From: a virus
Reading direction: 5' to 3' (one strand)
DNA length: 64,000 nucleotides
IMG/VR virus record: IMGVR_UViG_3300021091_000016
The notes under the pieces: generated by a model
Databases searched by the model: none
What the model saw: only the letters and a program-made list of their open reading frames with translations
Told to the model about the DNA's origin: nothing
Made by a program: the position numbers and the translations under genes
In this document: one piece after another, positions 1 to 46,346 of the stretch
How the letters are laid out: every line of letters starts with the position of its first letter
Position numbering within the stretch: position 1 is the first letter of the stretch

Positions 1-6
1 GGGCAG

Positions 7-813
7 TTGCTTGCCTTGCTTGTGTCAATGATTATCCTATGGGAGATTCTCCCTGGGGTATTCTTACCCTTGTCTTCATTTTGCTTCCTCCTTTACAAGA
101 GGATCGATGAAGATGACCCTGAGTACAGTTATGTGAAAGGTTGGGGGTATAGCTTCTTGGTGCTATCCCTGATGTATCACGGCTGCCAACCCCAACGCGT
201 CCCTCTAAATCTGCCTGGCAAAACAATTCAAGAATCTTTTGAGTTCAATGACTACTTGCTTTCCAAGCAAGAGCTCTTGACTCATTACAAGAGCAATTGG
301 AAAGTTACGCGTGGATTGAATTTGGAGAGGAATCTCAAAGCGGATATTCTAGAGCATCCCGCTCGAAAATACCTGTTAGAGAATCCAGCCGTGTGTGTCT
401 TGCATGTAGGCGAACTGTCCAGCCTGGACTTCGCTACATATAGGACCAACAGTTTGTTGCTGAGTGTCCCACAAGCCTTCTATTCCAATAGGAGGTTTAC
501 CTGTCGAATTGCCATTGTCTACGGACATGGTGATTCCAAGGGTGGGATTCACGGACATTTAACGCATGCTCTTAACGGTGAACCCACGAGGTTTACTGAG
601 GAAGAGCTAAGACTGGCTTACCCCCAGTTAGAGTTAATGTTCGTGAAATGTAGGGGTGGTCGTAGCTATGACTACAGCTATCCCCTATACGCTCAAGATG
701 GGAGCTTCTTTACAGCCGAAGAAGGCCAGTCCACCTATGGTGACTGGTTCTTTGAGGCTTGGAAAAGGAGGGCCCTGAAGCAATTCTTTGACCTTTACAG
801 GTACGAGGAATAA
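7..813 (+). CDS. hypothetical membrane-anchored protein (start uncertain, may extend off the window)
   Basis: 268-aa ORF with hydrophobic N-terminal segments. Confidence 0.6.
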   Translation: MLALLVSMIILWEILPGVFLPLSSFCFLLYKRIDEDDPEYSYVKGWGYSFLVLSLMYHGCQPQRVPLNLPGKTIQESFEFNDYLLSKQELLTHYKSNWKVTRGLNLERNLKADILEHPARKYLLENPAVCVLHVGELSSLDFATYRTNSLLLSVPQAFYSNRRFTCRIAIVYGHGDSKGGIHGHLTHALNGEPTRFTEEELRLAYPQLELMFVKCRGGRSYDYSYPLYAQDGSFFTAEEGQSTYGDWFFEAWKRRALKQFFDLYRYEE

Positions 814-850
814 ATAACAAAACAGGGGTAGCGTCCCTTTAAGCCACGCC

Positions 851-906
851 ATGGTCTACAGGGTTGTCCCTGTACTGATGATGGGCCAATTGAGGCCCGA
901 AACCAT
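851..906 (+). ncRNA. type III hammerhead ribozyme HH1
   Basis: ATGG-TC^ TACAGGG/CCCTGTA (stem I), CTGATGA, extra T, GGGCC/GGCCC (stem II), GAAA-CCAT; predicted cut after C856. Confidence 0.9.
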
Positions 907-985
907 TTAACTGTAATAGTGCTTTCTATTCAGCACTTAAATATGAATATAAGCAAAATGGGTCTAATCTCATCCAATCTATCAA

Positions 986-1048
986 TGACAAGATACATAG
1001 CGTTCGATGCTATGCTGATGAGACCTAATTCGGGGTCGAAATCTGTCA
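986..1048 (+). ncRNA. type III hammerhead ribozyme HH2
   Basis: TGACAAGA-TA^ CATAGC/GCTATG, CTGATGA, GACC/GGTC, GAAA-TCTGTCA; predicted cut after A995. Confidence 0.9.
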
Positions 1049-1161
1049 AGAGATATCTAAAAAACATTTCTCATCAATACTGGTGGATTAACCGCTTAAT
1101 GAATCAAGCTTAGAGCCTCAGCTGCTCTATATTTCTCTTGGTTTATTTTTAATCCTGTAGT

Positions 1162-1170
1162 GACGAGACG
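1162..1170 (+). promoter_or_regulatory. GACGAGACG motif, putative phage RNAP promoter
   Basis: Repeated 9-mer downstream of a hairpin/T-tract and upstream of RBS AAGGAG and ATG 1198. Confidence 0.6.
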
Positions 1171-1197
1171 TCAAAGCCGACATAAAAGGAGATTCTT

Positions 1198-1971
1198 ATG
1201 TCAAATTGTAAACGAGGGATATTCCCTCAAGTCTGGCCAGCACAACTGGCTAATCCAGCTGGTTGCTGGAAAAGTGTTAAGGTGGAGCGTGCTCCATCAG
1301 TTTTACCAATGATTGTTTTAATGATTGTTGGTATCCTTGGTTTAATTTTGGGTTCATTCCTGGTGGAACCTAAAGCTACTCCTTTTTCAGGCTTGCAAAT
1401 CTGTAAGCCACAGCCTCAACCCATTCCTCAGCCTCAGCCTGAACCTGAACCTCAGATTGAGCCACAGCCTGAGCCTAAAGCCGAACCTAAAACCGAAGTT
1501 AAACCTAACCTAATTGATGCTGCTATCGCTGTAGCAAAAGCGCAAGAGTTTGTTTCCTCGTCTAACGAGGAGACTATGCGTTTGAGTTTGCAAACCGCAA
1601 TTGAACACTGGGAGTCTCTAGGGGAAACCCAAGATGACATCCAAAACCTAGTAGCGCTATATTACGTGGAAACACGTTATGGCGTGAAAGGGAAGATTTG
1701 CAGGGACGATACTGGCGCTTGTGGTCATTTCCAGATTGTCCCAAAGGTGTGGAAAAAGTTATTCGGCCAGCTCAAAGATGATATCGAGTCTCAAGCAGAA
1801 ATGCTTATCGATATTAGGGAACACCTAAAGACATATAGCGCTGATAGGTGGAAGGCTTATTATGCGCTATCATTCAAAGGTGCTCAAGCCGCTATCAAAA
1901 GCGGTAAATTGAGTGCCTATGAAGTAAGAAACAATAAAATTGAGAGCGAAATAAAGGCTCTCTTAAAATAA
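1198..1971 (+). CDS. membrane-anchored lytic transglycosylase/lysozyme-fold protein with PQ/PE linker
   Basis: TM helix, PQPEPE repeats, SLT-like YVETRYG...GACGHFQI motif. Confidence 0.6.
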   Translation: MSNCKRGIFPQVWPAQLANPAGCWKSVKVERAPSVLPMIVLMIVGILGLILGSFLVEPKATPFSGLQICKPQPQPIPQPQPEPEPQIEPQPEPKAEPKTEVKPNLIDAAIAVAKAQEFVSSSNEETMRLSLQTAIEHWESLGETQDDIQNLVALYYVETRYGVKGKICRDDTGACGHFQIVPKVWKKLFGQLKDDIESQAEMLIDIREHLKTYSADRWKAYYALSFKGAQAAIKSGKLSAYEVRNNKIESEIKALLK

Positions 1972-2012
1972 AATAACAATCATAAATACTAATACTAATT
2001 ATAATAACTAAA

Positions 2013-2070
2013 TCTTATATAGAGGGTTTCTCCCTCTACTGATGAGGCCTAATTGACGGCCGAAATAAGA
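2013..2070 (+). ncRNA. type III hammerhead ribozyme HH3
   Basis: TCTTA-TA^ TAGAGGG/CCCTCTA, CTGATGA, GGCC/GGCC, GAAA-TAAGA; predicted cut after A2019. Confidence 0.92.
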
Positions 2071-2131
2071 ACATCAGTTTGTATCATATCTTTTCTGTCA
2101 TTCTCGCTGTGAATAAATAAATAAGACATTA

Positions 2132-2156
2132 ACAAGACTTTCATTAGTCTTTTTTT
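2132..2156 (+). terminator. intrinsic terminator-like hairpin
   Basis: AAGACT-TTCATT-AGTCTT followed by a T run. Confidence 0.55.
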
Positions 2157-2183
2157 GTGCTTCATTTTTTAAACACCTGTAAT

Positions 2184-2192
2184 GACGAGACG
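2184..2192 (+). promoter_or_regulatory. GACGAGACG motif
   Basis: Context CCTGTAATGACGAGACG after terminator. Confidence 0.6.
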
Positions 2193-2197
2193 ATTTC

Positions 2198-2243
2198 AAC
2201 TCTAGCATGGCGCATTTTCTAGGTTCGATTCCTAGATAGAGTT
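2198..2243 (+). ncRNA. tRNA-like minihelix (acceptor stem + T-arm only)
   Basis: AACTCTA/TAGAGTT 7-bp stem stacked on CTAGG-TTCGATT-CCTAG T-arm. Confidence 0.55.
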
Positions 2244-2360
2244 TTAGACCAATTATGGTCGAGCTGGGTTTAGTACAACCCTCCAAAAGTACTCTTAAGC
2301 TAATACAATTCCGTATAAAGCTTTCGTATTTTAACAATCCCAATGTAAGGAGAATGCATC

Positions 2361-2696
2361 ATGGGAAAGTTCAATTTCAAAATTAACAAAGCCATCAAGG
2401 CTGAGTTGATTACACGAGGGTTGTTACCCTTATTCGTTAAGGCCGTAAAAGGTCTGGTAAATCAAGGCGTCGTTGTCACTGACAACAGTAGCGTCTTGTT
2501 GGCTCTTATTTCCTTCATGAAGGATAATAAAGGGTTTTTCACAAGAAAGCAATTGCTAGTAGTGTTGCTAGCATTGTTCCAAAAAGCGAGCTTTCTCTGT
2601 AGGACCGGTTGGTCCGCAGGTGGAGAAAGCTTCCTCGTTGACACAGAGAATGGGACTCTCTATGTCAATCTAAGCCAAGTCCAATTCTACTTCTAG
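2361..2696 (+). CDS. hypothetical protein
   Basis: 111-aa ORF with AAGGAG RBS. Confidence 0.75.
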   Translation: MGKFNFKINKAIKAELITRGLLPLFVKAVKGLVNQGVVVTDNSSVLLALISFMKDNKGFFTRKQLLVVLLALFQKASFLCRTGWSAGGESFLVDTENGTLYVNLSQVQFYF

Positions 2697-2990
2697 TAGA
2701 GAAAGGTAGCTATCATGCTAATTGATTCGTCCTAAACGAATTTGCGTCTAAAGTGCAGGTGTAATTCCTGTTAATCCCAAACCCCCAAACCCCAACCCTC
2801 ACCCAATGGAGATTATTATGGATACGTCCTAAAATCCCAGAGAGATGCTATTCGTTAGCTTAAACATCTCTCTTAACGCAAGCTAACAAGCGCACACGTC
2901 CCGTGGCTATCCAATAGCCATTACCCGAAGCCCAGAACGTCAACCCTCTCATTCACCTGTTTTGTCTGTCACCATTCTCCTATATATCGG

Positions 2991-3030
2991 ATAAGCCAAA
3001 GCGCTTCGGCGTGGTCTTGGTTTATTTTTT
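2991..3030 (+). terminator. intrinsic terminator-like hairpin
   Basis: ATAAGCCAA...GCGC-TTCG-GCGT...TTGGTTTAT then T run. Confidence 0.55.
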
Positions 3031-3056
3031 CCGCTATATATTTTGTGACTTGTAAT

Positions 3057-3085
3057 GACGAGACGAAAAATGACGAGACGAGACG
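3057..3085 (+). promoter_or_regulatory. tandem GACGAGACG motifs upstream of the RNAP gene
   Basis: Copies at 3057, 3072 and an overlapping copy at 3077. Confidence 0.65.
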
Positions 3086-3127
3086 AACTCGGTAAAATCA
3101 ATTGTACAACTGCATAAGGAGATTACC

Positions 3128-6100
3128 ATGCAGCAAGTAACTATTAAGGGGATTTTTGACCCCATATACGACCGCAACGTAAGTTTGGGTCGTGACATTC
3201 TAGCTTTGGCGTTAAAAAACGTTAAAGCAATTGCTTCAACCCAAGCCAAGGTTCAAACCAAGGCTAATTTCAAGATTAAAGCTAAGGTTAAAACCAAGGT
3301 CCAAGCAGAAGTCGTACGCGCTGAAAGAGCTGCAGCTAAGGCTAAAGCTCGTAAGGGTTATGATGTAGCTAGAGCCGCTCTCTGTTACCTATTAGGTGGC
3401 GGAAAGATTTTCAAAGACACTTTAGAAGCAGCAAGACTGTTTCTAAGAGGTGGAGTTGAAGCTCTCGGCTTGAATGGCATGCCCAGTAACGATGCTGGTG
3501 TTTATTATGCCTCGAGCTTGAATGCTGTACAAATGGTGTTGGCTGAGAAAATCGGTTTACTCAGCAGACCAGGGAAAGCCTTAAGCTCTGCAGCAAATTA
3601 TGATCAATATCGTGATTTATTGGAGAAGGTAATTCATGATGCTTTTCCTAAGAACGGGTTACAGCTTGATGAAGTCCAAATGAAAAGGGAATGGTTTAAG
3701 AATCTAACTGGCACTGCCGATTTAGATTCTGCTATCGGAGACTTTTTGGATGATGCAAGAAGAGCTGTCATGAGTCTAGATTGGGTGGGTCTGGATAATG
3801 GGGGGCTTGCGGTAAGAGTGAGTGGTCGTTTGATTACGGTGCTCAAACCACAAGTCAACTCCTTAAGGAGAAAGAGCGAGAGCAAGGTTTCGAAGGCTGG
3901 GAGCTCTATTAAGTTCGATCAAACGAACAATAGAGATGGTTCTCAGCTAATTGGAGAGTTAGTGGTGCTCCCAACTGGAGTTAAGAGTGAAACAAAAGCT
4001 GAAGGTTATGTAACTGAATCAAACAGCGACACAACCTTTGGTGTAATCACAAAGGTAAACTCAAGCTGGAATTCCAGTTTATTCCCTCTTTGTGAGGCGT
4101 TTGGAATTCAAATTGACCCAATCAAAGACGTAATTAAGATTACGTCTAAGGACCTGACGGAGGGTAACAAATCTAGAGCAAACGAAGGTTTGTTGGCTTT
4201 AGGCTACCTTCCTGTTACGGAAGGTGTTTATCTAAGGGAAGAAATTTGGGAAAAAGTAATGGGTGTCTTTGCTAAAGTATTTGGTGAGCTCAAAGATATA
4301 AGAAGCTATGGTAGGAGCTTCATAAGCACCCCAGCCTTGACGGCGTTCAAGGAGTATCAAAACATCCCAGTATTCCTTGCTGGTGATGATTTGCTGGGGT
4401 GGGAAGGGAATGATGGTGCTGGGTTGGTAACCGCAGGTACCATCATGGATAAGGGTTTCCAATTTAGATATATTGGAAATGGGCGGTTCGGTAAGGGATT
4501 AATTGCTAGATCCCATTATTTAGTGAAGGAACTGGAAGGAAAGTATAGCTTGGTAAGCTACAAAGATGATCTTAAACCAAGCGAATTCAATAAGATTCAA
4601 GAGTGGTTAAGCGATCTCGCTTGCTCAACTGGGTATTCAATAGAAAGTGAAAATGGGGGGACTTATCATAAGGCATTAATTCTAACGCCTTCAACCCTCA
4701 AGGGAATCAATAAAAAGATTCCCAAAGGTGGAGAATTTTTCCAAGGGGATGTGAATAGATTGACAACGATTATCGGCAAGGATGCTGATAAGCAAAAAAC
4801 TAGTAATAACTGGCAAATCGCTCAGCTATTACAAGCGTTGTCAAACCCCTCTCAGGATAAGGGATTTCTTCAGTTGAAGGATCATTTCTTTAAGGCCTTG
4901 GATAAAAAGGTAGGAAAGGCGATTGAGAAAGGGTTAAATTTGAGGGACAAAGGTGGCAACATGGATCTAATCCAATTGGCCACTTTTTTCAGCAGTGAGA
5001 AATATGCTCATCTGTTGAATACCTTCAATACCAAGGCCGAAAGTCGTTATGTCAACATGATGACGTTCGGTGGGGATGGTGTCTATGGAAATGGTGTGAT
5101 CCTAAAAGCATTCAGCAACGCTCACAAGGATAAGCTGGTGCTTAACAGCGTGTTAACACGCACGCCAAACCAAGATAGTCAATCTGTCCAGCTGCAGGAT
5201 AAAATCAATCCGGCTAAGTTGAGAGAGGTTCTGGATAGGTTAAAGCTGAATGGTTGGAACCGTAGCACATTAAAGACCTCAGAGGAGATTGAGGTAATCA
5301 ATAAAGTACTTGGCAATTGGAGTGCTGAGGAATGTGATAGATTCTTAGAGTTTTTCAAGAATGTAATATCACCCCAAATCAAGGATGGTTTGATTTGGGT
5401 CTCCAGTAATCTGCAAGGTATGATTACAGGAGATAATGATGGCGATAGAGATATCATTACTGATGACCCCTTATGGATTGCCATGGGAGAACTGATAGCT
5501 CTCAATACGGATGAGCGTCCGGTGAAGGAGAGCTTAAAGGCCTTTGTGCTTAAAGCAAAGGTCATACATGGGGATGGTAACGAGGTCGAATTGATGGTGG
5601 GAATGATGGATGATGAAAGTAGGAAGCCTGAACTTCTGAAATGTCTCAACTATCTGACTGCTAAAAATAGTGGTCAATTGAATGTAGGAGCAATCACAAA
5701 TGGTGCTGCGATAGCAACCACCTATTTTGATCCTATATTTGATGAGGATGGGACGTTTAGGATGAAGGAATGGGTAAGAAGATACTTCTTTACTTGTTTC
5801 GACATTCAGCAAGTAAGTATCGACAGGCAGAAATATGCCTATGTCATCCCGTCGTTGAGATACTTCCATCTCAATAAGGGTTTTTATCTACTTGATAATG
5901 GGAATGCCTTAATCATCCCAGGGTTAAGCTTTGTACCTGCGGGTATGCACAAGCTCAAACAAGTCCAGGGTGGACTTAAGGATGAGACGGAGGCAATCGA
6001 ATTTTTCAAGAAGGAATTTGGAAATTTTGAAGATGGCATAGAACATATGCCAGATCTAGAGCTGGGTGCAAAGCAAGTACAGATCACGGACCCCGTGCAA

Positions 6101-8659
6101 GGGTTTAGCGTGATTGGTGTGTACACATGGGCGCAATTTGTGCTCATGAGCTTCAAGCTTTGCGAAGCTCTAGGCGTGGATGAAATGAAATGGGGAGAGG
6201 TGTATGAGAAGCTCCTGACATCGCAAGATTTTGTTGGTTTCTTTAACGCAGATGGCAGGGATAAAGCAGGGCTTGCAACAAACTTAATTACTCTCTTGGA
6301 TGATTTAGTAGAGGTAAATGATCCTGCAAAGTCTTTGTTGGAGTTAACCCTAATCAGCAAAAAGGATATGTTGGGGTGGTTGGATGACGCAAATGCTATA
6401 AATCGTCCAGCACATATGCAACTCATCAAAGACAAAATTGATGGGATTGTGTTAAGTGCCTTGGATGATTGTAATATCAAAGCTCCTGATGTCAAGGACT
6501 TAGAAGCAGCGTTCCATACCGCTATAGGATCTCAATATGAGAGTTTAAGCTTCATCACCAACTATGAGGGTCATCAGATTGATCCTCAAGCCCACATGCG
6601 TGTCTTTAGTGATGCGCTAGCTAAGGCCAAAGAGGTCATGGCAAGAGAGGCAGAGGGTACTGCACAGAGCGTGAGGAAGCAGAGCTCTGCAGATAGCAGT
6701 ACTAAGGTCCTCTCTAAGGTAGCCAGCGCCTTTGGTGAAGCCTGGTATTTGGGTGGAGAGAGGGTAAGTGAGGAGGAGAAGGTGATGCAGAGTTTCTCTA
6801 ATAGTGTCTCGAAAGCACTATTGAACTCACAGGTCAATACAGCTAGCCGTAAGGATTATCTGGATAGATTTGAAGAAGCTGTTCAAAAGACAGCTTCTCA
6901 CGTCGTACTTAACGCAAATAAGTATGATAATGTGGGTGAGTTTATTGCATTCCTTGCGGAATGCATGGAGGCAATTGGAGAAGCAAGAACCAATACAGAT
7001 CGTTTAGATTTTCATGGTGAAAACCTAAAGGTGGATCTTATTGCTTTCTTCAATAAGCTGAACATGCATTCCGACCTCAAAACCCAAATAAATGCCTTAT
7101 ACAACCAGGTGTTTAAGAAGGGAGTAGAGGCTCTTTGGGACGGGATGGGGGACAAGGAAAAGGCTGTTCAAATTCTGGGACTTAAGCCAGGCACCAACCC
7201 AAGCTTTGATCAAAAGCTCTATTTGGTAAAGTTTAGTGCTTCGTATCAATTCTTTGAGAACAGCCTGGCTGTAATCAACAGATTGTATAAAGCAATAAGC
7301 TTTTATCCATCTGATTCTTCCTTGAAGGATAAGATGAAAGCTACAGTGCTGAGAAGCATTAAAAGCTTTGATAGAAACGCAAACCAATGGGTTGATGAGT
7401 TGGTAGTTGCTCCTGTAGCTGATTTCCAGCTCCCATTGGAATTCTGGGCTGAAAAGTTGATGGTTCTGCTTAACAGTGGAATCAATATCAACTTGAGGCT
7501 TAAGAAAGCTAAAAGGATCAAGACCCTAGATAACGGATATGATTTTTTCAAGAGTGATGATTGGGTCATGTACTCAAGCGTCATGCTGAAGTATCTGTCT
7601 GCTTTGGGGATTGATGTAAACCAATACCTCAGGACCGACCTAGAAATAGGTTTTGGTCATGTTTGGGGTTTAGCGGATTACCTCACTCTCTTACTAGGAG
7701 AGGCTGATACCAAGGGGAAGTTGGTAGGACATGCAGATGCAGCCGATGAGGCCGCCATTCAAGATATCTTTAAATCCAAAGGCTTAAATCTAGATGAATA
7801 TCGAAAGGCGCTTAATGTGCTCAAAGATAGCTCATTTAGCTTAAGTGGTGAGTGGAACCAAAAGATGAAAAATGGCGGAGAGACCCTTGTCGCAAATGAA
7901 ATGTATGTTGCGTTTCCTCTGATGTTAGTCAATAGCTTGGTTAAAAAATCAAGGAGAGATTCCAAACTTGACATCATGGATTATAATTATACCACAGCGT
8001 TGCGTGTTTCATTACACAATGCGTTGGGGGTAGAAATGGATAATTCAAGTGTTGGTGGGAATCAAGTTGATTTCGACCGAGTCCTAAAGGCTTTGTGGCC
8101 AGATAGAGTCCAGGAAGTCCTGGAATACTCTGGTTTTGGCCGTATTGCGTTTAGCAATTATCAGCCAAAAGAGTATATCTATGGCGGGTACCAGGTTGCT
8201 AGGTCTGTTGGTAAAGTCTTTGGTAAGGTCGCACAGGAGAAAACAGCTTACCAAAAGCTGAAAGAATCCAGACCTGTCGGGGGTTACGACCGCATAGAGT
8301 ACCAAGAGGAGTGGACCATGCAGACGCTCTTTGAAGCTCTAGCCCCTGAAGTACTTGAGAGTAACAAAAATTACAATCAAGACAAAAAGGGTTTAGTCTC
8401 TCTACTAGGTGTGATGTTGCTACAAAGCGATTTCATTACCTTAACAGAGATTGCCTTAGGGCTCAATAAGTTTGACGGTTCTGAAAGTCTTGTCGATCCA
8501 TGTTATTTCAGCTTGTACAGAAAAATCTCCAACAGAGATTTTCGAAGTTTACTGGCTTTGATTAAATATGGACAGCAAGGCAATAAGACCTTAAGCAAGT
8601 GGAATCTTCAGGTAAACCCAAAGCTTGACATCAAAGGCTTACTAAAAGCCTTCAATTAA
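3128..8659 (+). CDS. single-chain two-barrel (DPBB) RNA polymerase, YonO/QDE-1-like
   Basis: Ordered motifs FQFRY..G..GKG, TRTP, catalytic GDNDGD (DxDGD), VGAITN, SIDRQK match the cellular RdRP/YonO family order. Confidence 0.8.
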   Translation: MQQVTIKGIFDPIYDRNVSLGRDILALALKNVKAIASTQAKVQTKANFKIKAKVKTKVQAEVVRAERAAAKAKARKGYDVARAALCYLLGGGKIFKDTLEAARLFLRGGVEALGLNGMPSNDAGVYYASSLNAVQMVLAEKIGLLSRPGKALSSAANYDQYRDLLEKVIHDAFPKNGLQLDEVQMKREWFKNLTGTADLDSAIGDFLDDARRAVMSLDWVGLDNGGLAVRVSGRLITVLKPQVNSLRRKSESKVSKAGSSIKFDQTNNRDGSQLIGELVVLPTGVKSETKAEGYVTESNSDTTFGVITKVNSSWNSSLFPLCEAFGIQIDPIKDVIKITSKDLTEGNKSRANEGLLALGYLPVTEGVYLREEIWEKVMGVFAKVFGELKDIRSYGRSFISTPALTAFKEYQNIPVFLAGDDLLGWEGNDGAGLVTAGTIMDKGFQFRYIGNGRFGKGLIARSHYLVKELEGKYSLVSYKDDLKPSEFNKIQEWLSDLACSTGYSIESENGGTYHKALILTPSTLKGINKKIPKGGEFFQGDVNRLTTIIGKDADKQKTSNNWQIAQLLQALSNPSQDKGFLQLKDHFFKALDKKVGKAIEKGLNLRDKGGNMDLIQLATFFSSEKYAHLLNTFNTKAESRYVNMMTFGGDGVYGNGVILKAFSNAHKDKLVLNSVLTRTPNQDSQSVQLQDKINPAKLREVLDRLKLNGWNRSTLKTSEEIEVINKVLGNWSAEECDRFLEFFKNVISPQIKDGLIWVSSNLQGMITGDNDGDRDIITDDPLWIAMGELIALNTDERPVKESLKAFVLKAKVIHGDGNEVELMVGMMDDESRKPELLKCLNYLTAKNSGQLNVGAITNGAAIATTYFDPIFDEDGTFRMKEWVRRYFFTCFDIQQVSIDRQKYAYVIPSLRYFHLNKGFYLLDNGNALIIPGLSFVPAGMHKLKQVQGGLKDETEAIEFFKKEFGNFEDGIEHMPDLELGAKQVQITDPVQGFSVIGVYTWAQFVLMSFKLCEALGVDEMKWGEVYEKLLTSQDFVGFFNADGRDKAGLATNLITLLDDLVEVNDPAKSLLELTLISKKDMLGWLDDANAINRPAHMQLIKDKIDGIVLSALDDCNIKAPDVKDLEAAFHTAIGSQYESLSFITNYEGHQIDPQAHMRVFSDALAKAKEVMAREAEGTAQSVRKQSSADSSTKVLSKVASAFGEAWYLGGERVSEEEKVMQSFSNSVSKALLNSQVNTASRKDYLDRFEEAVQKTASHVVLNANKYDNVGEFIAFLAECMEAIGEARTNTDRLDFHGENLKVDLIAFFNKLNMHSDLKTQINALYNQVFKKGVEALWDGMGDKEKAVQILGLKPGTNPSFDQKLYLVKFSASYQFFENSLAVINRLYKAISFYPSDSSLKDKMKATVLRSIKSFDRNANQWVDELVVAPVADFQLPLEFWAEKLMVLLNSGININLRLKKAKRIKTLDNGYDFFKSDDWVMYSSVMLKYLSALGIDVNQYLRTDLEIGFGHVWGLADYLTLLLGEADTKGKLVGHADAADEAAIQDIFKSKGLNLDEYRKALNVLKDSSFSLSGEWNQKMKNGGETLVANEMYVAFPLMLVNSLVKKSRRDSKLDIMDYNYTTALRVSLHNALGVEMDNSSVGGNQVDFDRVLKALWPDRVQEVLEYSGFGRIAFSNYQPKEYIYGGYQVARSVGKVFGKVAQEKTAYQKLKESRPVGGYDRIEYQEEWTMQTLFEALAPEVLESNKNYNQDKKGLVSLLGVMLLQSDFITLTEIALGLNKFDGSESLVDPCYFSLYRKISNRDFRSLLALIKYGQQGNKTLSKWNLQVNPKLDIKGLLKAFN

Positions 8660-8750
8660 CAATTAACACAAAACCCCCACATCGGGGCTACTAAAGTGAA
8701 TAGTTTAAGCTAATCATTTTAAAAGTCCCGTATGTGGGAGAAAGGTATTT

Positions 8751-9209
8751 ATGGACCTAAATGAATACAAAGCTTTCCTAGATGAGCTTAAACAACTAGG
8801 GGTTGAAGAATATATCATGGCGGATATCTTGTTCGAAAAAGGATACACTTCACCGTATCAGTTGGCACGTGCTGGTGTGTCAAGCGCGATTATACATGGA
8901 GTGAGGATTCTTATGTCACAAAAGGCTGCTAGCCAAACTGGCAGTCAGATAAATGTTACTATTGGGAATATTTATGTTCTTGATGGTAAGACTGACCTCA
9001 AAACAATGCTGGCTTTAGCTGGTATCAATGGGGTTGACCCAAAGCAGATAACTTCCTCGCCAAAAGTATCTGTTAAAGCTACCCCGGTAACACCAACTCC
9101 TAGCACAGTGGTGATACCTCCCCTCAAAGCTCCTGCTACATCTAATAAGTTCGCAAACCTCTCCAACGATGACGATGAGGATGATGAGACTGATTATGAT
9201 GACAATTAA
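8751..9209 (+). CDS. hypothetical protein, acidic C-tail
   Basis: 152-aa ORF with RBS. Confidence 0.75.
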   Translation: MDLNEYKAFLDELKQLGVEEYIMADILFEKGYTSPYQLARAGVSSAIIHGVRILMSQKAASQTGSQINVTIGNIYVLDGKTDLKTMLALAGINGVDPKQITSSPKVSVKATPVTPTPSTVVIPPLKAPATSNKFANLSNDDDEDDETDYDDN

Positions 9210-9214
9210 CGAAA

Positions 9215-9276
9215 GGAACTGATGAGCCTCCCGGGAGTGGGAGGCGAAACCTAGGGCTAACCCCCGATGGTCTTCC
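9215..9276 (+). ncRNA. type I hammerhead ribozyme HH4
   Basis: GGAA CTGATGA GCCTCCC/GGGAGGC GAAA CC-TAG..CGAT-GG TC^ TTCC; cut after C9272. Confidence 0.9.
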
Positions 9277-9388
9277 ATTGCTCCAACCCTTTTTATACAC
9301 ATACTATAGTGTTTCGATGCGGACTCCGCCTGAAGAAAACTCCACTATAGCAGATGGTATTCTAACACTTTTTTAAAGGAGTATAAAT

Positions 9389-9760
9389 ATGTTAGACACA
9401 GACAGTTTACTAGACGCCGCCCAGAAAGCTACTCTTGATATTCTTCCCGATGATCAAAAAGCAGTAATCAAGGCACTGTTAACAACGCAAGCCCAACTAC
9501 AAGCCAGGAATTTAATTCTCGGTGAGTTCAGCAAGGCAACGGCACTGGCACTTCCCTATGGGAAGGAAGTCAAGGCTTTAACGCATATTGTTAATACGCA
9601 AGCGGACCTAGCCACGCTAAGTGATTTTATCACAAAAGCAATGGCTTTAGGTTGTGGCTTCTCGCTAGTTATCCAAGCACCCCAAGGTGATTTGTTCCAG
9701 AAATGGAATAAAGATATCCACAAAGGTGTAGTTGGACTAAAATCCGAGCTTAGTAAGTAA
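9389..9760 (+). CDS. hypothetical protein
   Basis: 123-aa ORF with AAGGAG RBS. Confidence 0.75.
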   Translation: MLDTDSLLDAAQKATLDILPDDQKAVIKALLTTQAQLQARNLILGEFSKATALALPYGKEVKALTHIVNTQADLATLSDFITKAMALGCGFSLVIQAPQGDLFQKWNKDIHKGVVGLKSELSK

Positions 9761-9808
9761 GGGTTTTTAGGACCGGTTAGGTTCTTTTTTTCTAAACCTT
9801 GCAGTCGA

Positions 9809-9817
9809 GACGAGACG
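9809..9817 (+). promoter_or_regulatory. GACGAGACG motif
   Basis: CGAGACGAGACG after a T-tract. Confidence 0.6.
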
Positions 9818-9930
9818 GCAAAAATAGAGTCTACTTGTAAAAATCAGAATACCATCCGTGGAGCTTCACGTAAAAGAGCTAGACCTTGACTCGAGGTCGT
9901 CTTAACTGTTTTGCATCAAAGGAAACTATC

Positions 9931-10071
9931 ATGTTCTATTCAATAGAAATCGCAATCAAATATTTAAGCTGTCTCCCCTACAATGTTAACACTTCTGTTG
10001 ATGTTGTATTACTCGATAAAACCTTTTGCGTTAGTAAAAGATACGCAATCATAACTGTAAAGGAAGTCTAA
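9931..10071 (+). CDS. small hypothetical protein
   Basis: ATG 9931 behind AAGGA, in frame with track ORF 9886..10071. Confidence 0.5.
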   Translation: MFYSIEIAIKYLSCLPYNVNTSVDVVLLDKTFCVSKRYAIITVKEV

Positions 10072-10072
10072 A

Positions 10073-10219
10073 ATGAAGTTATTTACTGTATTATTAAATA
10101 ATGGTCAGGTAGAAAGTATTAAGTGCCGCGATCAACAAATGGTTGGCGGTATTATTTCGGAGCTCACAGGTGGTGAGTTATATGTAGTTGCCATTTTAAA
10201 TGAGCAACAATTGGGCTAA
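10073..10219 (+). CDS. small hypothetical protein (48 aa, not in track)
   Basis: MKLFTVLLNNGQVESIKC...QQLG*; AAGGA RBS; stop overlaps HH5. Confidence 0.6.
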   Translation: MKLFTVLLNNGQVESIKCRDQQMVGGIISELTGGELYVVAILNEQQLG

Positions 10220-10268
10220 CTGATGAGTTCTTAAGAACGAAACCTAGGGTAAAACCGATGGTCTTAGT
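10215..10268 (+). ncRNA. type I hammerhead ribozyme HH5
   Basis: GCTAA CTGATGA GTTC/GAAC GAAA CC-TAG..CGAT-GG TC^ TTAGT; cut after C10263. Confidence 0.9.
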
Positions 10269-10299
10269 ATAAACACAACACAACACAAGGAGATCAAAC

Positions 10300-10476
10300 A
10301 TGCTAAAGTTTGTTATCAGGCAATTAGAGGTACCAGATTGGGATCCTCTTAGGTGGGAAGTCGCGGTGTATAGGAATGGTGTCGAGGTGTATAATGATAT
10401 TGATACCAAGGAGAATCTCGTAGGTTTATTTGAACACTTTGTTCAGAAGGAGAATCAAAATGAGATTGGAGATTGA
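10300..10476 (+). CDS. small hypothetical protein (58 aa, not in track)
   Basis: MLKFVIRQLEVPDWDPLRWEVAVY...; AAGGAG RBS. Confidence 0.65.
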   Translation: MLKFVIRQLEVPDWDPLRWEVAVYRNGVEVYNDIDTKENLVGLFEHFVQKENQNEIGD

Positions 10477-10603
10477 AGTATGGGATAAGGAGCATTGGGA
10501 AGTTAAGGTTATGGATGAGAGTCAAGTCATGTATCATGACGTAATTTATTGGACTCAATTAGAGGGTTTAATTGCGGAATTGAAATTGAAATATAATTTT
10601 TGA
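10460..10603 (+). CDS. small hypothetical protein (47 aa, not in track), likely paralog of upstream ORF
   Basis: MRLEIEVWDKEHWEVKVM...; AAGGAG RBS; shared WEV-x-V...V-x-Y/Y-x-D pattern. Confidence 0.65.
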   Translation: MRLEIEVWDKEHWEVKVMDESQVMYHDVIYWTQLEGLIAELKLKYNF

Positions 10604-10801
10604 TGGGGCGCCATTATTACGCGGTCTCTTATTGTCTGGTCTTACAATAAAAGGCTATGGTAGTCAAGTTTGATTACCAGAATAGACCTATATATTTTTT
10701 AATATCTTGGATCGGCATCCAAGCGAAATTATACGCCGTAGACAGTGAAAGGTCGCATTAAACCTTTCTTTGTTAACAAGAGCAAAAATTAATGCCGTCC
10801 A

Positions 10802-10874
10802 GCCAACTGATGAGGACGTTAAACTTAGACCCTTGAACAAGGTCGAAACCTAGGGGAAACCCGATGGTCTTGGT
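10802..10874 (+). ncRNA. type I hammerhead ribozyme HH6 with 14-nt core insertion
   Basis: GCCAA CTGATGA [GGACGTTAAACTTA] GACC/GGTC GAAA CC-TAG..CGAT-GG TC^ TTGGT. Confidence 0.75.
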
Positions 10875-10949
10875 AGTTTAATAGTAGTATGTTGCTATTA
10901 TTGAATTGGTTTTTTAAAACCAATCTTTTTTTAAAACCCTTTCTTTTCC

Positions 10950-10973
10950 GACGAGACGTCACCTGACGAGACG
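10950..10973 (+). promoter_or_regulatory. two GACGAGACG motifs
   Basis: GACGAGACGTC at 10950 and 10965, after TTGGTTTT/AAAACCAA hairpin + T run, before RBS of 11000. Confidence 0.65.
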
Positions 10974-10999
10974 TCGCTGTACAATAGGAGATTTTTAAT

Positions 11000-11254
11000 A
11001 TGCAAGAATTTTTAAGTTTTGTTGAGAGCCAAAAACAAGTAACAAGAAACAGAAACTCTACAAATAGCATTGTTGAGAATGTTGCCAAGCTACTTGAAGC
11101 AAACATTACACATCTATTAAAGGATCATCATGCTATATATCAAATTTCCCCTGATCCATTAGAATATGGAAAAGTATTTATTAATAAGACAGTTTATCAA
11201 ATTGTAGATACTGAAAATAGAAAAGCATTATTAATTTATAATTTATATAACTAG
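11000..11254 (+). CDS. hypothetical protein
   Basis: 84-aa ORF, AGGAG RBS. Confidence 0.7.
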   Translation: MQEFLSFVESQKQVTRNRNSTNSIVENVAKLLEANITHLLKDHHAIYQISPDPLEYGKVFINKTVYQIVDTENRKALLIYNLYN

Positions 11255-11313
11255 CCAACTGATGAGACCTTTAGCATGGTCGAAACCTAGAAGTGATTCG
11301 ATGGTCTTGGTAG
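11251..11313 (+). ncRNA. type I hammerhead ribozyme HH7
   Basis: GCCAA CTGATGA GACC/GGTC GAAA CC-TAG..CGAT-GG TC^ TTGGT; cut after C11306. Confidence 0.9.
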
Positions 11314-11342
11314 CTTTAACCGTAACAAGAAGGAGACTCATT

Positions 11343-11648
11343 ATGAGTATTGTAGAAATAAATATTATTGCGGCGATTATTTGTATATGTATCGCAACAA
11401 TATATAACCTACTCACTGATTTTAAACGATTCAATGATGTAGCTGTAGTAGCATGGTCTATATTAGAAGTGCTGGGATTCAAAAGAGAGTACCATTGGAG
11501 CGGTAATATTATTGCATTCGTTCTTAACCAAGTAGTGAATGTAGTAGTATTTATGTATTTGCCAGGACTATTCCTAATCTGTGCTATATCCTATATTATT
11601 GTAGGATTAAATAGCATATCAGAGGAGTTGAATGCAAATGAGCTTTAA
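11343..11648 (+). CDS. hypothetical membrane protein
   Basis: AAGGAG RBS favours ATG 11343 over 11262 (which lies inside HH7); hydrophobic. Confidence 0.65.
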   Translation: MSIVEINIIAAIICICIATIYNLLTDFKRFNDVAVVAWSILEVLGFKREYHWSGNIIAFVLNQVVNVVVFMYLPGLFLICAISYIIVGLNSISEELNANEL

Positions 11649-11868
11649 TATTGCTTTATGTATCTTTTCATCCTGGTTGTTCGTAGACGAAATGCAATTC
11701 TTAAACGCAACACTTAACCAAACGCTTAGACTCGATATAAAGATTCTAATGCATATGATTACCTTAACTGTACTTTCAATGAATGCATCAATGATGCTAT
11801 CCATGCCACAAAGCTACACTCTATTCGGAGTAGTAGCTATCATAACCTATATCATCTACAAAGGATAA
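11632..11868 (+). CDS. hypothetical membrane protein
   Basis: Hydrophobic 78-aa ORF. Confidence 0.6.
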   Translation: MQMSFNIALCIFSSWLFVDEMQFLNATLNQTLRLDIKILMHMITLTVLSMNASMMLSMPQSYTLFGVVAIITYIIYKG

Positions 11869-11873
11869 CTGTA

Positions 11874-12200
11874 ATGTTAGAAGAACACTATCAAGGCTCA
11901 GCATTTAGAGAATGCCAAACCACTGACAATGAAATGTATTGTCAAACAAACAAATTTATTACTAGAGATGATAAGGTAATTGAGTATGTCGAAAGATATT
12001 ATAAGAAAACCTCATCGTTCTTGGTAATGTTCAATCCCTCAAATATCCCACTATTTGAGGATAGGGTCATGGTCTATGCAGAACAAATTCAATTTGCTAA
12101 GAACCTAGACATGGATATTAAATTTAAGAAGGATAAAAGACATCCAGATTTATATGTAGTACATATCGACCCAAAGAGTGAGATAAACACTACATGTTAG
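11874..12200 (+). CDS. hypothetical protein
   Basis: 108-aa ORF in a tight gene chain. Confidence 0.65.
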   Translation: MLEEHYQGSAFRECQTTDNEMYCQTNKFITRDDKVIEYVERYYKKTSSFLVMFNPSNIPLFEDRVMVYAEQIQFAKNLDMDIKFKKDKRHPDLYVVHIDPKSEINTTC

Positions 12201-12436
12201 ATTTGTATATTAGCTGTTGGATATTCAGCAGTATCTTTTTTATTGGTTATATATTGGTAAAGAGAGATGAGATAGAAGCTGTTAATGTGCCGTTTGATTT
12301 AGAATTTATTAAATCGGTAATAGGCTTTTACTTCATGTCATTCTTTACCTGGCATATGCTAGTGGCTCTATTAGTCACAGACCCAAAAGGATTTGATAAT
12401 GAAATTAAGAAATCAGTCCAAAACTACTCAAAATAA
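12194..12436 (+). CDS. hypothetical membrane protein
   Basis: 80-aa ORF, two hydrophobic segments. Confidence 0.6.
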   Translation: MLDLYISCWIFSSIFFIGYILVKRDEIEAVNVPFDLEFIKSVIGFYFMSFFTWHMLVALLVTDPKGFDNEIKKSVQNYSK

Positions 12437-12449
12437 AGGAACACAAAAA

Positions 12450-12830
12450 ATGAGCAATCAAGACACAACAACAGAGACTCCTAAGGTAGATACACCTAAG
12501 GTAGAAGCTCCAAAAGAAGAAACTCCCAAAGTGGAGACTCCTAAGACAGAAGTAAAAAGCTTTAATGAAATCTATAAGGACTTACCTAGATGGTCTAAGA
12601 TATTACTCTCGTTAGTAGTAATTAGTGCAATTTATAAGTTCGTCCCAATTGTGGAGCTATTGACATTGTTTTTCTGGGCTGTAATGGTTCCAGTAGTATT
12701 TCTATTTATGTTAGGCGTTATTAGTAGTGAGACCTATGATTCCATTTGTGATGGAATCACTGGTATTAAGAAAGCCGTCAAAACAAAGCTAGAAGAAGAA
12801 AAAACACAAGCTCCTCAGAATGCATCGTAG
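12450..12830 (+). CDS. membrane protein with ETPKV repeats
   Basis: AAGGA RBS before ATG 12450; TPKV repeats and two TM helices. Confidence 0.65.
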   Translation: MSNQDTTTETPKVDTPKVEAPKEETPKVETPKTEVKSFNEIYKDLPRWSKILLSLVVISAIYKFVPIVELLTLFFWAVMVPVVFLFMLGVISSETYDSICDGITGIKKAVKTKLEEEKTQAPQNAS

Positions 12831-12914
12831 TGCGTGTACTGAACACAACTACAGTCTTTTACCCCTAGAAAACCTAATCCCCCCTATCTCGAAAAGAGAG
12901 AAAGTACTTAACAA

Positions 12915-13478
12915 ATGTTTAGTAAAGTATCAAATGTAATCACAGTTTTTAAAGCATTTTGCCACAATCCAAGCATTCAAGGAGAATTGATGGACAGCTT
13001 AAGAAAGAAAGTAGTAGAAAGCTCAATGAATCTCATCACTGTATATAGTGCAGTAATTGATGAAAGACATAAGGTAATCGAGACTTTATCTAAATTAGAG
13101 GATACTGTTAATCTTATTGAGGAAAGATGGAACCTACATGTAACAGATGTAGCTACATATAAGAATACAAAGATTGGTAAAGCAGTAAAGGCAATTATTG
13201 AATCAGATTCTGAGATTGATAGCAGGGTAATTAATAAGCTAGAATCAGCAATCGACGATGTGAATCCAAGAAAAATTATCAATGTTTACAAGGCTTTAGA
13301 TACTGGTAGTCTCGAGAGAAGGCTTGATGCACTACAGGAACAATATGAGGAGATTCAAGGAATTAATGGTATTGCTGCTAGAGATACAGAGGTACTAGTC
13401 AAGCATCATATGCAACTAGTAGAGATGGTATTGGCAGAAAGGAAATGTGAATCCACACAAGAAGAATATAATTTTTAA
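12915..13478 (+). CDS. hypothetical coiled-coil protein
   Basis: 187-aa helical ORF. Confidence 0.65.
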   Translation: MFSKVSNVITVFKAFCHNPSIQGELMDSLRKKVVESSMNLITVYSAVIDERHKVIETLSKLEDTVNLIEERWNLHVTDVATYKNTKIGKAVKAIIESDSEIDSRVINKLESAIDDVNPRKIINVYKALDTGSLERRLDALQEQYEEIQGINGIAARDTEVLVKHHMQLVEMVLAERKCESTQEEYNF

Positions 13479-45212: not shown

Positions 45213-45284
45213 TATGGATCAAGATGATGACTTATTCTCTGTAATATTTTTTTTAACAATAATCCTTTATGTAATTGTAAATTG

Positions 45285-46343: not shown

Positions 46344-46346
46344 TAA

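What the first reader, a model, noticed from the sequence alone, without database searches (positions are those of the whole stretch)
3128..8659. Divergent 1843-aa single-chain RNA polymerase of the YonO/QDE-1 two-barrel class
Seen: motifs in the order FQFRY-x-G-x-x-x-x-GKG, TRTP, GDNDGD, VGAITN, IDRQK. Established: this is the motif order of eukaryotic RNAi RdRPs, SPbeta YonO and, more distantly, crAss-like virion RNAPs. About 1000 aa after the catalytic motif and a long N-terminus are unexplained. Inference: a phage RNAP with built-in promoter-recognition domains. Because it is flanked by ribozymes, activity on RNA templates is also worth testing.
Basis: partly seen in the sequence, partly recalled or inferred. 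Interest (0 to 1): 0.8.

Follow-up and report, generated by a model that had tools for sequence, protein, structure and literature searches.

The report
Giant single-chain phage RNA polymerase, new family
An uncultured ~150-kb phage encodes a 1,843-residue single-chain RNA polymerase built like the catalytic core of cellular RNA polymerase; it belongs to a rare, unannotated family and sits in a ribozyme-studded early gene block behind a deeply conserved promoter-like DNA box.

Summary
ORF 3128-8659 (+) is intact at 1,843 aa, and every quoted motif is present in the stated order. All eight residues that define two-barrel RNA polymerases (D429, R447, K456, R678, P680, D769, D771, D773) are conserved wherever a homologue covers them.

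An AlphaFold model of aa 371-1200 (pLDDT 84.5) matches only single-chain two-barrel RNAPs at the top of two independent fold searches: QDE-1, RDR2, P23-45-type gp64/gp62 and gp96, and crAss gp66.

By sequence it is a family of its own. There is no Pfam or PDB sequence hit, the one PHROG hit is marginal and unannotated, and 50,697 phage genomes give no match. Only 16 of 1.84 billion representative proteins match it. Similarity to YonO is limited to the catalytic loop.

The last ~700 aa have no recognisable fold. The first ~370 aa could not be folded.

The gene is the fourth gene of the early module, inside a GC-rich island. Tandem GACGAGACG boxes precede it, and they are conserved in orthologues only 27% identical. 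Hammerhead-like motifs flank it.

A relative carries a second RNAP-like giant protein in its tail module. The scan had already noted such a gene in this genome. I therefore read this enzyme as the early-made, non-virion transcriptase. That role is inferred, not shown.

The parts
3128..8659 (+). Gene for the 1,843-aa single-chain two-barrel RNA polymerase (P0001)
   Evidence: Open frame. Homologues of 1,576-2,329 aa are known only from metagenomes.
3239..3367 (+). N-terminal Lys/Ala-rich basic segment (aa 38-80, pI 10.6). The rest of the N-terminal region (aa 81-370) has unknown fold.
   Evidence: Composition. K/A/E-rich tracts recur in the N-termini of most homologues. Not folded here.
4337..4777 (+). 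DPBB-B (beta-like barrel, aa ~404-550) carrying GNDG (D429), QFR (R447) and GKG (K456)
   Evidence: Model residues 31-180 match double-psi barrels (rows 44 and 47). D429, R447 and K456 are conserved in 21 of 21 covering sequences.
5033..5470 (+). DPBB-A (beta-prime-like catalytic barrel, aa ~636-781) with R678-T-P680 and the metal-binding G768-DNDGD-773 (nt 5429-5446)
   Evidence: Model residues 266-411 match many DPBB domains and RNAP largest subunits at Z 5-7. These residues are invariant in 23 of 23 sequences.
5675..5833 (+). Conserved helices after the catalytic barrel: QLNVGAITN (aa 850-858) and IDRQK (898-902). These are probably the bridge-helix and trigger-loop-base equivalents (inferred).
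   Evidence: Predicted helices at model 480-496 and 511-529. G854, D899, Q901 and K902 are invariant. Assignment is by position only.
6533..8656 (+). Family-specific C-terminal extension (aa 1136-1843): a helical bundle followed by alpha/beta domains, no recognisable fold
   Evidence: AF2 pLDDT 78.1. Foldseek best E 0.12, VIA best Z 6.8 on generic helices. No stand-alone homologues found.
2999..3127 (+). Upstream control module: GC hairpin plus T-run (about 2999-3030), three overlapping or tandem GACGAGACG boxes (3057-3085), then Shine-Dalgarno AAGGAGA
   Evidence: Sequence. The 9-mer has 9 exact + strand hits, all within 1162-13729, against 0.06 expected. The same tandem boxes at 15-nt spacing lie upstream of the orthologous gene in L001, L006, L013 and L014.
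848..2072 (+). Three type-III hammerhead-like elements upstream (about 848-909, 984-1047, 2011-2072)
   Evidence: Pattern hits. The 984-1047 and 2011-2072 elements give a three-way junction with the core unpaired as their minimum-energy fold; for 848-909 only stems I and II form. Rfam Hammerhead_3 scores 21.6 bits for 2014-2069, below threshold.
9211..11314 (+). Four type-I hammerhead-like elements downstream (9211-9276, 10212-10268, 10798-10878, 11250-11314) sharing the stem III element ACCUAGGG..CCCGAUGGU
   Evidence: Only 10798-10878 and 11250-11314 give a hammerhead-like three-way junction as their minimum-energy fold, and none of the four folds better than shuffled sequence.

Best explanation
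The gene encodes a catalytically competent, single-polypeptide, DNA-dependent RNA polymerase of the two-barrel (double-psi beta-barrel) superfamily. It founds a rare family that is unannotated in Pfam, PHROGs and deposited phage genomes. A beta-like barrel (D429, R447, K456) and a beta-prime-like barrel (R678-x-P680, D769-x-D771-x-D773) should form one active site that holds two Mg2+ ions and the incoming NTP, as in QDE-1, YonO, crAss gp66 and P23-45 gp64/gp96. About 1,000 family-specific residues surround this core (N-terminal 370 aa, C-terminal 700 aa). They presumably replace sigma and other accessory functions, but that is an inference. In the infection cycle I read it as the phage's non-virion polymerase. 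It is encoded as the fourth gene of the early module, in a GC-rich pre-early island. It would be expressed from terminator plus GACGAGACG modules, read by host RNAP or by a tail-borne virion RNAP. It would then transcribe the densely packed middle and late genes. Early transcripts are probably trimmed by the hammerhead-like elements. What is shown: the ORF, its conservation, the predicted fold, the signature residues, the synteny and the conserved DNA boxes. What is inferred: enzymatic activity, DNA as template, timing, non-virion status, and which polymerase reads the boxes. My estimates are ~0.92 for 'two-barrel RNAP' and ~0.6 for 'non-virion early enzyme'.
For: Fold: the AF2 model of aa 371-1200 has pLDDT 84.5 and pTM 0.85. 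The 20 listed Foldseek PDB rows with E below about 2e-3 are all single-chain two-barrel RNAPs: QDE-1 at 1.7e-6, RDR2, crAss phi14:2 gp66 at 1.5e-4, and P23-45-type gp64 at 4e-4. The Foldseek-independent VIA search ranks ZmRDR2 at Z 11.9, QDE-1 at Z 11.5 (423 aligned residues), P74 gp62 at Z 10.7 and P23-45 gp96 at Z 10.4. Multisubunit RNAP largest subunits and generic DPBBs follow at Z 5-7. BFVD hits are uncharacterised phage proteins, crAss-like polymerase fragments and P23-45 gp64. Signature: the eight universally invariant residues listed in PMC2919709 are all present and conserved. The [RK]xP-x(20-100)-DxDxD filter used in PMC10770324 is met with an 88-residue spacing. Context: in every locus recovered (L001, L003-L007) the gene lies 4-5 kb into the rightward module that diverges from a leftward module. 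In the relative G001:C1 that leftward module holds terminase, portal, major head protein and baseplate genes. The gene is followed by many small ORFs and then nucleotide-metabolism and replication genes. The GC island (42% against 31%; GC3 0.37-0.54 against ~0.2) is present in this phage and in a 27%-identity relative. GACGAGACG boxes are confined to the first 14 kb of the window and sit upstream of the orthologous gene in four other lineages. Second polymerase: the relative's tail module holds a 3,226-aa ORF with FRNPQL...GDFDGD. Earlier scan notes report the equivalent gene in this genome. The layout parallels P23-45, where a tail-borne vRNAP transcribes a ~9-kb pre-early block that includes the nvRNAP gene (PMC10770324).
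Against: There is no experimental activity, and the fold is a prediction from a shallow alignment of 23 sequences. No model coordinates were available, so I could not confirm that D429, R447 and K456 sit beside the DxDxD loop. At 1,843 aa the protein is three times the size of the known non-virion single-chain enzymes (gp64 ~600 aa, YonO 839 aa) and resembles virion polymerases in bulk (crAss gp66 2,180 aa). I did not see the second RNAP-like gene of this genome myself, only motif-level evidence in a relative. No candidate promoter for this enzyme was found in the tightly packed 14-64 kb region. The gene lies only ~4 kb from the structural module.
Confidence: 0.6

Rival explanations
1. It is itself the virion-packaged, injected polymerase, like crAss phi14:2 gp66 or N4 vRNAP. 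It would recognise the GACGAGACG modules and transcribe the early island, including its own gene.
For: Large size with long extra N- and C-terminal regions, as in gp66. A conserved basic K/A-rich N-terminal tract. The boxes are restricted to the early island and are most strongly conserved directly upstream of this gene. The gene lies next to the structural module.
Against: The gene is on the early-module strand and shares its promoter-like module with neighbouring small early genes, which is not the arrangement expected for a late, packaged protein. The relative's tail module already holds a giant RNAP-like protein in the tape-measure slot (notes), which is the better candidate for the injected enzyme.
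Confidence: 0.22
2. It works mainly on RNA templates, or on both RNA and DNA as QDE-1 does. It might copy or extend ribozyme-bounded early transcripts rather than serve as the general transcriptase.
For: The best structural matches are the eukaryotic RNAi polymerases RDR2 and QDE-1, and QDE-1 has dual DdRP/RdRP activity (PMC9508822 abstract). The gene sits among hammerhead-like elements.
Against: The matches to the phage DNA-dependent enzymes gp62/gp64 and gp96 are statistically tied with the RdRP matches (Z 10.1-10.7 against 11.5-11.9). No experimentally characterised phage member of this fold class that I know of (YonO, gp66, gp64, gp96) is an RNA-dependent enzyme. The elements are explained more simply as mRNA-processing sites. 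No RNA replicon-like feature was seen.
Confidence: 0.06
3. It is a catalytically dead or repurposed barrel protein, structural or regulatory, that merely retains the fold.
For: None specific, beyond the fact that no activity has been measured.
Against: All eight catalytic-site residues are strictly conserved across ~21-65% identity homologues. That is the signature of purifying selection on an active site.
Confidence: 0.03

Closest known systems
Thermus phage P23-45 gp64 / P74-26 gp62 non-virion RNAP, with its partner gp96, the tape-measure-fused virion RNAP (PMC10770324; PDB 8F72, 8F5M, 8H2M/N)
   Same: Single-chain two-barrel fold (VIA Z 10.7 and 10.4; Foldseek 4e-4). The gene lies in a short block of early genes marked by a conserved promoter-like motif. 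The phage clade also has a giant RNAP-like protein in the tail module.
   Different: No detectable sequence similarity. This protein is about three times longer than gp64, with ~1,000 extra residues of unknown fold. The catalytic loop is DNDGD. Hammerhead-like elements are interspersed. The roles are inferred here and not measured.
Neurospora QDE-1 and plant RDR2 (eukaryotic RNAi RNA-dependent RNAPs; PDB 2J7N, 7Y7P, 7W84)
   Same: These are the best structural matches over the whole core (Foldseek E 1.7e-6; VIA Z 11.5-11.9 with 388-423 aligned residues). The barrel order is the same (B then A), and the eight invariant residues are the same.
   Different: Pfam RdRP (PF05183) gives no hit at E <= 1, and identity is 10-13%. 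The setting is a phage with a presumed DNA template. The N- and C-terminal domains are different and larger.
Bacillus prophage SPbeta YonO (PMC5467207)
   Same: A single-chain phage two-barrel RNAP with the identical DNDGD metal loop and an R-x-P motif upstream of it. YonO transcribes phage genes without host RNAP subunits.
   Different: Sequence similarity is confined to ~41 columns around the catalytic loop (hhalign probability 1%, E 0.052; BLASTP E 0.11). YonO is 839 aa, serves late genes of a temperate phage, and has no solved structure to compare.
crAss-like phage phi14:2 gp66 virion RNAP (PDB 6VR4)
   Same: A very large single-chain two-barrel enzyme with long extra regions. Fold match: Foldseek 1.5e-4; VIA Z 5.9 over 423 residues, model 1-765 against gp66 869-1816.
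   Different: No sequence similarity. The gp66 metal loop is DFDID. gp66 is virion-packaged (entry title), whereas this gene lies in the early module.

Membership tests
Two-barrel (DPBB) RNA polymerase superfamily | [quoted passage not shown] | tested here: met
   In the predicted model (pLDDT 84.5), residues 266-411 and 31-180 match DPBB domains, and the whole core matches QDE-1, RDR2, gp62 and gp96 at Z 10-12. This rests on a prediction, not an experimental structure.
Two-barrel (DPBB) RNA polymerase superfamily | Eight invariant residues: Asp plus two basic residues in barrel B, and R-x-P plus DxDxD in barrel A (PMC2919709) | tested here: met
   D429, R447, K456, R678, P680, D769, D771 and D773 are conserved in every homologue that covers them. 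Equivalence of the barrel-B residues is by order and spacing, and was not checked in 3D.
Two-barrel (DPBB) RNA polymerase superfamily | [RK]xP-x(20-100)-DxDxD filter used by Chaban et al. 2024 | tested here: met
   R678-T-P680, then 88 residues, then D769-N-D-G-D773. This is the only such ORF in the window.
Two-barrel (DPBB) RNA polymerase superfamily | Bridge helix and trigger-loop base after barrel A | tested here: inconclusive
   Conserved helices at aa 850-866 and 881-899 lie within the structurally aligned range, but residue-level equivalence was not examined.
Two-barrel (DPBB) RNA polymerase superfamily | Template-dependent RNA synthesis | not testable with these tools
   Needs biochemistry.
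YonO family | Significant sequence or profile similarity to SPbeta YonO | tested here: not met
   hhalign of A1 against YonO gives probability 1% over 41 columns, and BLASTP gives E 0.11. PHROGs gives only one marginal hit (phrog_3181, unknown function, E 0.0047, aa 1163-1258), which lies outside the polymerase core.
Eukaryotic RdRP (Pfam PF05183) | Match to the Pfam RdRP model | tested here: not met
   Zero Pfam families at E <= 1. The similarity is at fold level only.
crAss-like virion RNAP (gp66 type) | Gene in the structural/late module, and sequence similarity to gp66 | tested here: not met
   The gene is on the early-module strand. There is no PDB sequence hit and no PHROG hit to a polymerase family. 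Virion packaging itself cannot be tested here.
P23-45-type two-polymerase system (nvRNAP role) | nvRNAP gene inside a short pre-early block with its own conserved promoter motif, plus a second RNAP fused in the tail module | tested here: inconclusive
   The block and motif are present. The second RNAP-like ORF was seen only at motif level in a relative and in unchecked earlier notes for this genome.
Hammerhead ribozyme (the flanking elements) | CUGANGA and GAAA cores, three stems, and a score at or above the Rfam gathering threshold | tested here: inconclusive
   Cores and stems are present. Four of the seven give a hammerhead-like three-way junction as their minimum-energy fold, and two more show parts of it. 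Rfam reports only one, at 21.6 bits against 48.5. Cleavage is untested.

The most novel reading that the evidence does not exclude
The phage clade runs a transcription cascade independent of host RNAP, using two unrelated-looking two-barrel polymerases: a tail-borne giant and this 1,843-aa enzyme. This enzyme would recognise promoters unaided through its ~1,000 family-specific residues. The early promoter-like box (GACGAGACG, in tandem at 15-nt spacing) stays letter-for-letter fixed while the polymerase diverges to 27% identity. Early transcripts would be cut into units by self-cleaving hammerheads instead of host RNases.
Probability: 0.3. Interest if true: 0.75.

Novelty: new variant of a known kind. 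Interest (0 to 1): 0.62.

Why it matters
Single-chain two-barrel RNAPs are the simplest relatives of the universal cellular transcriptase. Only a handful have been characterised: QDE-1/RDRs, YonO, crAss gp66, and P23-45 gp64/gp96. This adds a well-conserved but very rare family with a full catalytic signature and ~1,000 residues of unknown fold. It comes with a candidate cognate DNA element and a conserved genomic setting, so promoter recognition by a sigma-less enzyme can be tested directly with a synthetic gene and a ~100-bp template. It also extends the two-polymerase logic of P23-45 from a Thermus phage with an extremely long tail to an unrelated lineage of ~150-kb phages. Finally, it links phage-encoded transcription to clustered hammerhead ribozymes, whose role in phages is unclear to my knowledge.

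Tried and rejected
These searches returned nothing useful:
- Pfam on the whole protein: no family at E <= 1.
- PHROGs: only a marginal hit of unknown function, phrog_3181 at E 0.0047, aa 1163-1258.
- phmmer and a profile search against PDB sequences: only spurious low-complexity hits.
- tblastn against 50,697 phage genomes, whole protein at 1e-5 and core at E <= 1: no match.
- Protein-atlas search with the N-terminus: no usable hit.
- C-terminal 708 aa: Foldseek best E 0.12, with non-significant bacterial beta-prime chains among the top rows; VIA best Z 6.8 on generic helical bundles. No shorter stand-alone homologues.
- Rfam at gathering thresholds: no ribozyme anywhere in the window, only tRNAs. 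At E <= 1 over 1-12 kb: none.
- Sigma-70-like promoter scan of 1-12 kb: no more hits than in shuffled sequence (27 against 26).
- k-mer search for a second promoter motif in the intergenic regions of 14-64 kb: nothing recurrent, because that region has few spacers.
- hhalign of this family against the relative's tail-module giant: only 22 columns at the metal loop, so no evidence that the two are paralogues.
- ARAGORN: no tRNA in the upstream spacers.
- IMG/VR scan: only two further loci.

I dropped the idea that this is a 2-aminoadenine (PurZ) phage needing its own polymerase. The adenylosuccinate-synthase-like gene scores far better as PurA (355 bits) than as PurZ (128 bits against a cut-off of 300) in NCBIfam, although its PHROG is labelled PurZ-like.

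No whole genome is held for this window, so I could not inspect the second RNAP-like gene that earlier notes report in this genome.
Full report
**Observation**

The window has an uninterrupted + strand ORF at 3128-8659 encoding 1,843 aa. The pattern [RK]xP-x(20-100)-DxDxD is the filter Chaban et al. used to survey viral two-barrel RNAPs (PMC10770324 Supplementary Data 4). It occurs in no other ORF of at least 150 aa in the 64-kb window.

**Homologues and conservation**

The word-indexed search of 5.8 billion proteins returned 10 relatives of 1,577-1,887 aa. The exhaustive HMMER search of 1.84 billion cluster representatives, using the core region, returned only 16 hits. None has a name or a Pfam domain. 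IMG/VR, with 2.9 million contigs, holds two loci.

In an alignment of 23 sequences reaching ~21% identity, R678, P680, D769, N770, D771, G772, D773, E801, K804, G854, D899, Q901 and K902 are invariant. D429, Q445, R447, K456, G457 and K525 are present in all 21 sequences that cover them.

Ruprich-Robert and Thuriaux define the two-barrel family by eight invariant residues. In QDE-1 these are D709, R738, K743, R962, P964, D1007, D1009 and D1011 (PMC2919709). The counterparts here, by order and spacing, are D429, R447, K456, R678, P680, D769, D771 and D773.

**Fold**

An AlphaFold2 model of aa 371-1200, built with the 23-sequence alignment, reached pLDDT 84.5 and pTM 0.85.

- Foldseek against the PDB: the 20 listed rows with E below about 2e-3 are all single-chain two-barrel RNAPs. 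They are QDE-1 (1.7e-6), RDR2, crAss phi14:2 gp66 (1.5e-4), and the P23-45-type non-virion polymerases gp64/gp62 (4e-4 and 1e-3). The next hit is at E 0.13.
- The Foldseek-independent VIA search over 48,161 chains gave ZmRDR2 Z 11.9, QDE-1 Z 11.5 (423 residues, rmsd 4.2), P74 gp62 Z 10.7 and P23-45 gp96 Z 10.4/10.1. Largest subunits of multisubunit RNAPs and free-standing DPBB domains followed at Z 5-7, on model residues 266-411 and 31-180. That places DPBB-B at about aa 404-550 and DPBB-A at about aa 636-781.
- BFVD gave an uncharacterised 1,290-aa protein of an uncultured phage (8e-11), crAss-like polymerase fragments, P23-45 gp64 and phi14:2 gp66.

The two-barrel claim is therefore well supported. 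The caveat is that it rests on a predicted structure, and I could not inspect the coordinates.

**Family placement**

At sequence level the protein stands apart. There is no Pfam family at E <= 1, the single PHROG hit is marginal and of unknown function, and there is no PDB sequence match by phmmer or profile. tblastn against 50,697 phage genomes finds nothing even at E <= 1.

YonO, fetched from SPbeta, shares the DNDGD loop. hhalign aligns only 41 columns around it, at probability 1%, and BLASTP gives E 0.11. The protein works like the YonO/QDE-1/gp66/gp64 class but is not a member of any of those sequence families.

**Unexplained regions**

Residues 774 to about 1135 belong to the structurally aligned core (model range up to ~765). 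The truly unassigned parts are therefore aa 1-370 and 1136-1843.

The C-terminal 708 aa fold with reasonable confidence (pLDDT 78.1, pTM 0.64). They form a long helical bundle followed by alpha/beta domains. They match nothing: Foldseek best E 0.12, VIA best Z 6.8 on generic helices. They have no stand-alone relatives.

The N-terminus carries a basic Lys/Ala-rich tract (aa 38-80, pI 10.6), which recurs in most homologues.

**Genomic setting**

Independent contigs from three samples reproduce the locus. In every lineage recovered, a leftward pair of genes diverges from a rightward module: a giant SNase-domain protein of 1,550-1,613 aa and a ~245-aa protein. The polymerase is the fourth to seventh gene of that rightward module.

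In the 158-kb relative (G001:C1) the leftward module continues with terminase, portal, major head protein, giant proteins and baseplate. The rightward module continues with dozens of small ORFs. After these come a PurA-like synthase, PurB, RNase HI, ThyX, ribonucleotide reductase and a split DNA polymerase. The gene is thus in the early module.

It also lies in a compositional island: 42% GC and GC3 0.37-0.54, against ~31% and ~0.2 elsewhere. The island begins at the divergent junction, ends near 10 kb, and is also seen in the 27%-identity relative.

**Control elements**

The island has unusually long spacers. The 9-mer GACGAGACG occurs nine times in the window, always on the + strand and only between 1162 and 13729 (0.06 expected). 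It typically lies 15-25 nt after a hairpin plus T-run, and where a gene follows directly, 25-50 nt before its Shine-Dalgarno sequence and ATG.

Three copies (3057-3085) precede the polymerase gene. Exactly the same 9-mer, in tandem at 15-nt spacing, precedes the orthologous gene in L001, L006, L013 and L014. Those proteins are only 27-44% identical to this one. In the 158-kb relative the exact 9-mer occurs only four times on the phage contig, and three of the four are just upstream of this gene and its neighbour. This is a strong candidate promoter or operator.

Seven CUGAUGA-N(8-30)-CGAAA elements (0.23 expected) lie on the + strand at 875-11285. Four of them (984-1047, 2011-2072, 10798-10878, 11250-11314) give hammerhead-like three-way junctions with unpaired cores as their minimum-energy fold. 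For 848-909 and 9211-9276 only parts of the junction form, and 10212-10268 does not fold that way. The equivalent loci of relatives carry five or six each. Rfam reports only one, below threshold. I treat them as probable but unproven hammerheads. They flank the gene at a distance rather than abutting it.

**Role in infection**

Notes on related genomes say the same.

I could not reach that part of this genome. In the relative G001:C1 I found a 3,226-aa ORF in the tail module. It lies between the head genes and the baseplate and contains ...GRMSGSATLEGKG......FRNPQLGMSH... and ...GDFDGD.... It shows no profile similarity to the present family beyond the metal loop.

This resembles P23-45. There, a tape-measure-fused virion RNAP transcribes a ~9-kb pre-early block from a conserved motif. 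That block includes the gene of a non-virion RNAP, which then transcribes early and middle genes (PMC10770324).

By analogy, and because the gene sits on the early strand behind the same module as its small neighbours, I favour a non-virion, early-made transcriptase (~0.6). The alternative is a packaged enzyme that reads the boxes itself (~0.2). The protein's size, three times that of gp64 or YonO, keeps that alternative alive. An RNA-templated role (~0.06) has no specific support, because the fold matches to phage DNA-dependent enzymes are tied with those to the RNAi polymerases.

**Novelty**

The kind of enzyme is known: a phage single-chain two-barrel RNAP. This family, its ~1,000 extra residues, and its conserved box-plus-hammerhead setting are not described in the papers I could search and are absent from Pfam, PHROGs and deposited phage genomes. 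I rate it a new variant of a known kind.

Noticed in passing
window 1162-13729 (+); also L001 9081-9959, L006 9107-9960, L013 3570-16267, L014 3822-4697: The exact 9-mer GACGAGACG occurs nine times in the window against 0.06 expected. It usually follows a hairpin plus T-run and often precedes a gene start. Tandem copies at 15-nt spacing are conserved upstream of the RNAP gene across lineages that are only 27-44% identical. It is a candidate promoter or operator of the pre-early block.
   Followed up: partly
window 848-909, 984-1047, 2011-2072, 9211-9276, 10212-10268, 10798-10878, 11250-11314 (+): There are seven hammerhead-like elements: three type III and four type I, the latter sharing a stem III. 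All are co-oriented and confined to the early island. Relatives carry 5-6 each. Rfam scores are below threshold.
   Followed up: partly
window 11262-11648 (+): The called ATG of this 128-aa ORF is the AUG inside the CUGAUGA core of the hammerhead-like element at 11250-11314. The ORF start, or the whole ORF, may be mis-called.
   Followed up: no
window 1-10000; L003 5800-16000; L001 6000-16000: A GC-rich island (42% against ~31%; GC3 0.37-0.54 against ~0.2) covers exactly the first genes of the early module, including the RNAP. It is conserved in a distant relative. It may reflect codon adaptation of the first-expressed genes. ORFs at 62-64 kb are also GC-richer.
   Followed up: partly
G001:C1:88122-97799 (+) (loci L011/L012): A 3,226-aa ORF in the tail module of the 158-kb relative carries beta-prime-like FRNPQLGMSH (about aa 1358) and GDFDGD (aa 2783), about 1,400 residues apart, plus a GKG loop at about aa 1249. 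It is a putative tail-borne virion RNAP, and matches earlier scan notes.
   Followed up: partly
L003 195-4895 (-), L001 822-5663 (-), L007 1-3906 (-): A giant protein of 1,550-1,613 aa with a staphylococcal-nuclease domain is always the second gene of the leftward (structural) module, next to the divergent junction. Its function is unknown.
   Followed up: no
window 17202-19542 (+): An adenylosuccinate-synthase-like gene is labelled PurZ-like in PHROGs, but NCBIfam scores it higher as PurA (355 bits) than as PurZ (128 bits, cut-off 300). A PurB-like lyase follows it. Whether the phage makes 2-aminoadenine is open.
   Followed up: partly
window 45282-48833 (+): A phage-borne gene pair resembles a Type ISP or MmeI restriction-modification system: an HSDR_N-domain protein, then an 828-aa methyltransferase with a Type_ISP_C specificity domain.
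   Followed up: no
window 2219-2235 (+): A tRNA T-arm-like hairpin (CTAGGTTCGATTCCTAG) lies in the spacer downstream of a GACGAGACG box. ARAGORN calls no tRNA there.
   Followed up: partly
window 20979-21053 (+): Rfam calls a second tRNA here (35.9 bits) next to tRNA-Met at 20896-20969. ARAGORN does not report it.
   Followed up: no
window 2697-3020 (+): The 431-nt spacer before the RNAP gene contains a C-rich tract (2779-2806) and folds somewhat better than shuffled sequence (z -1.9). No family was assigned.
   Followed up: partly
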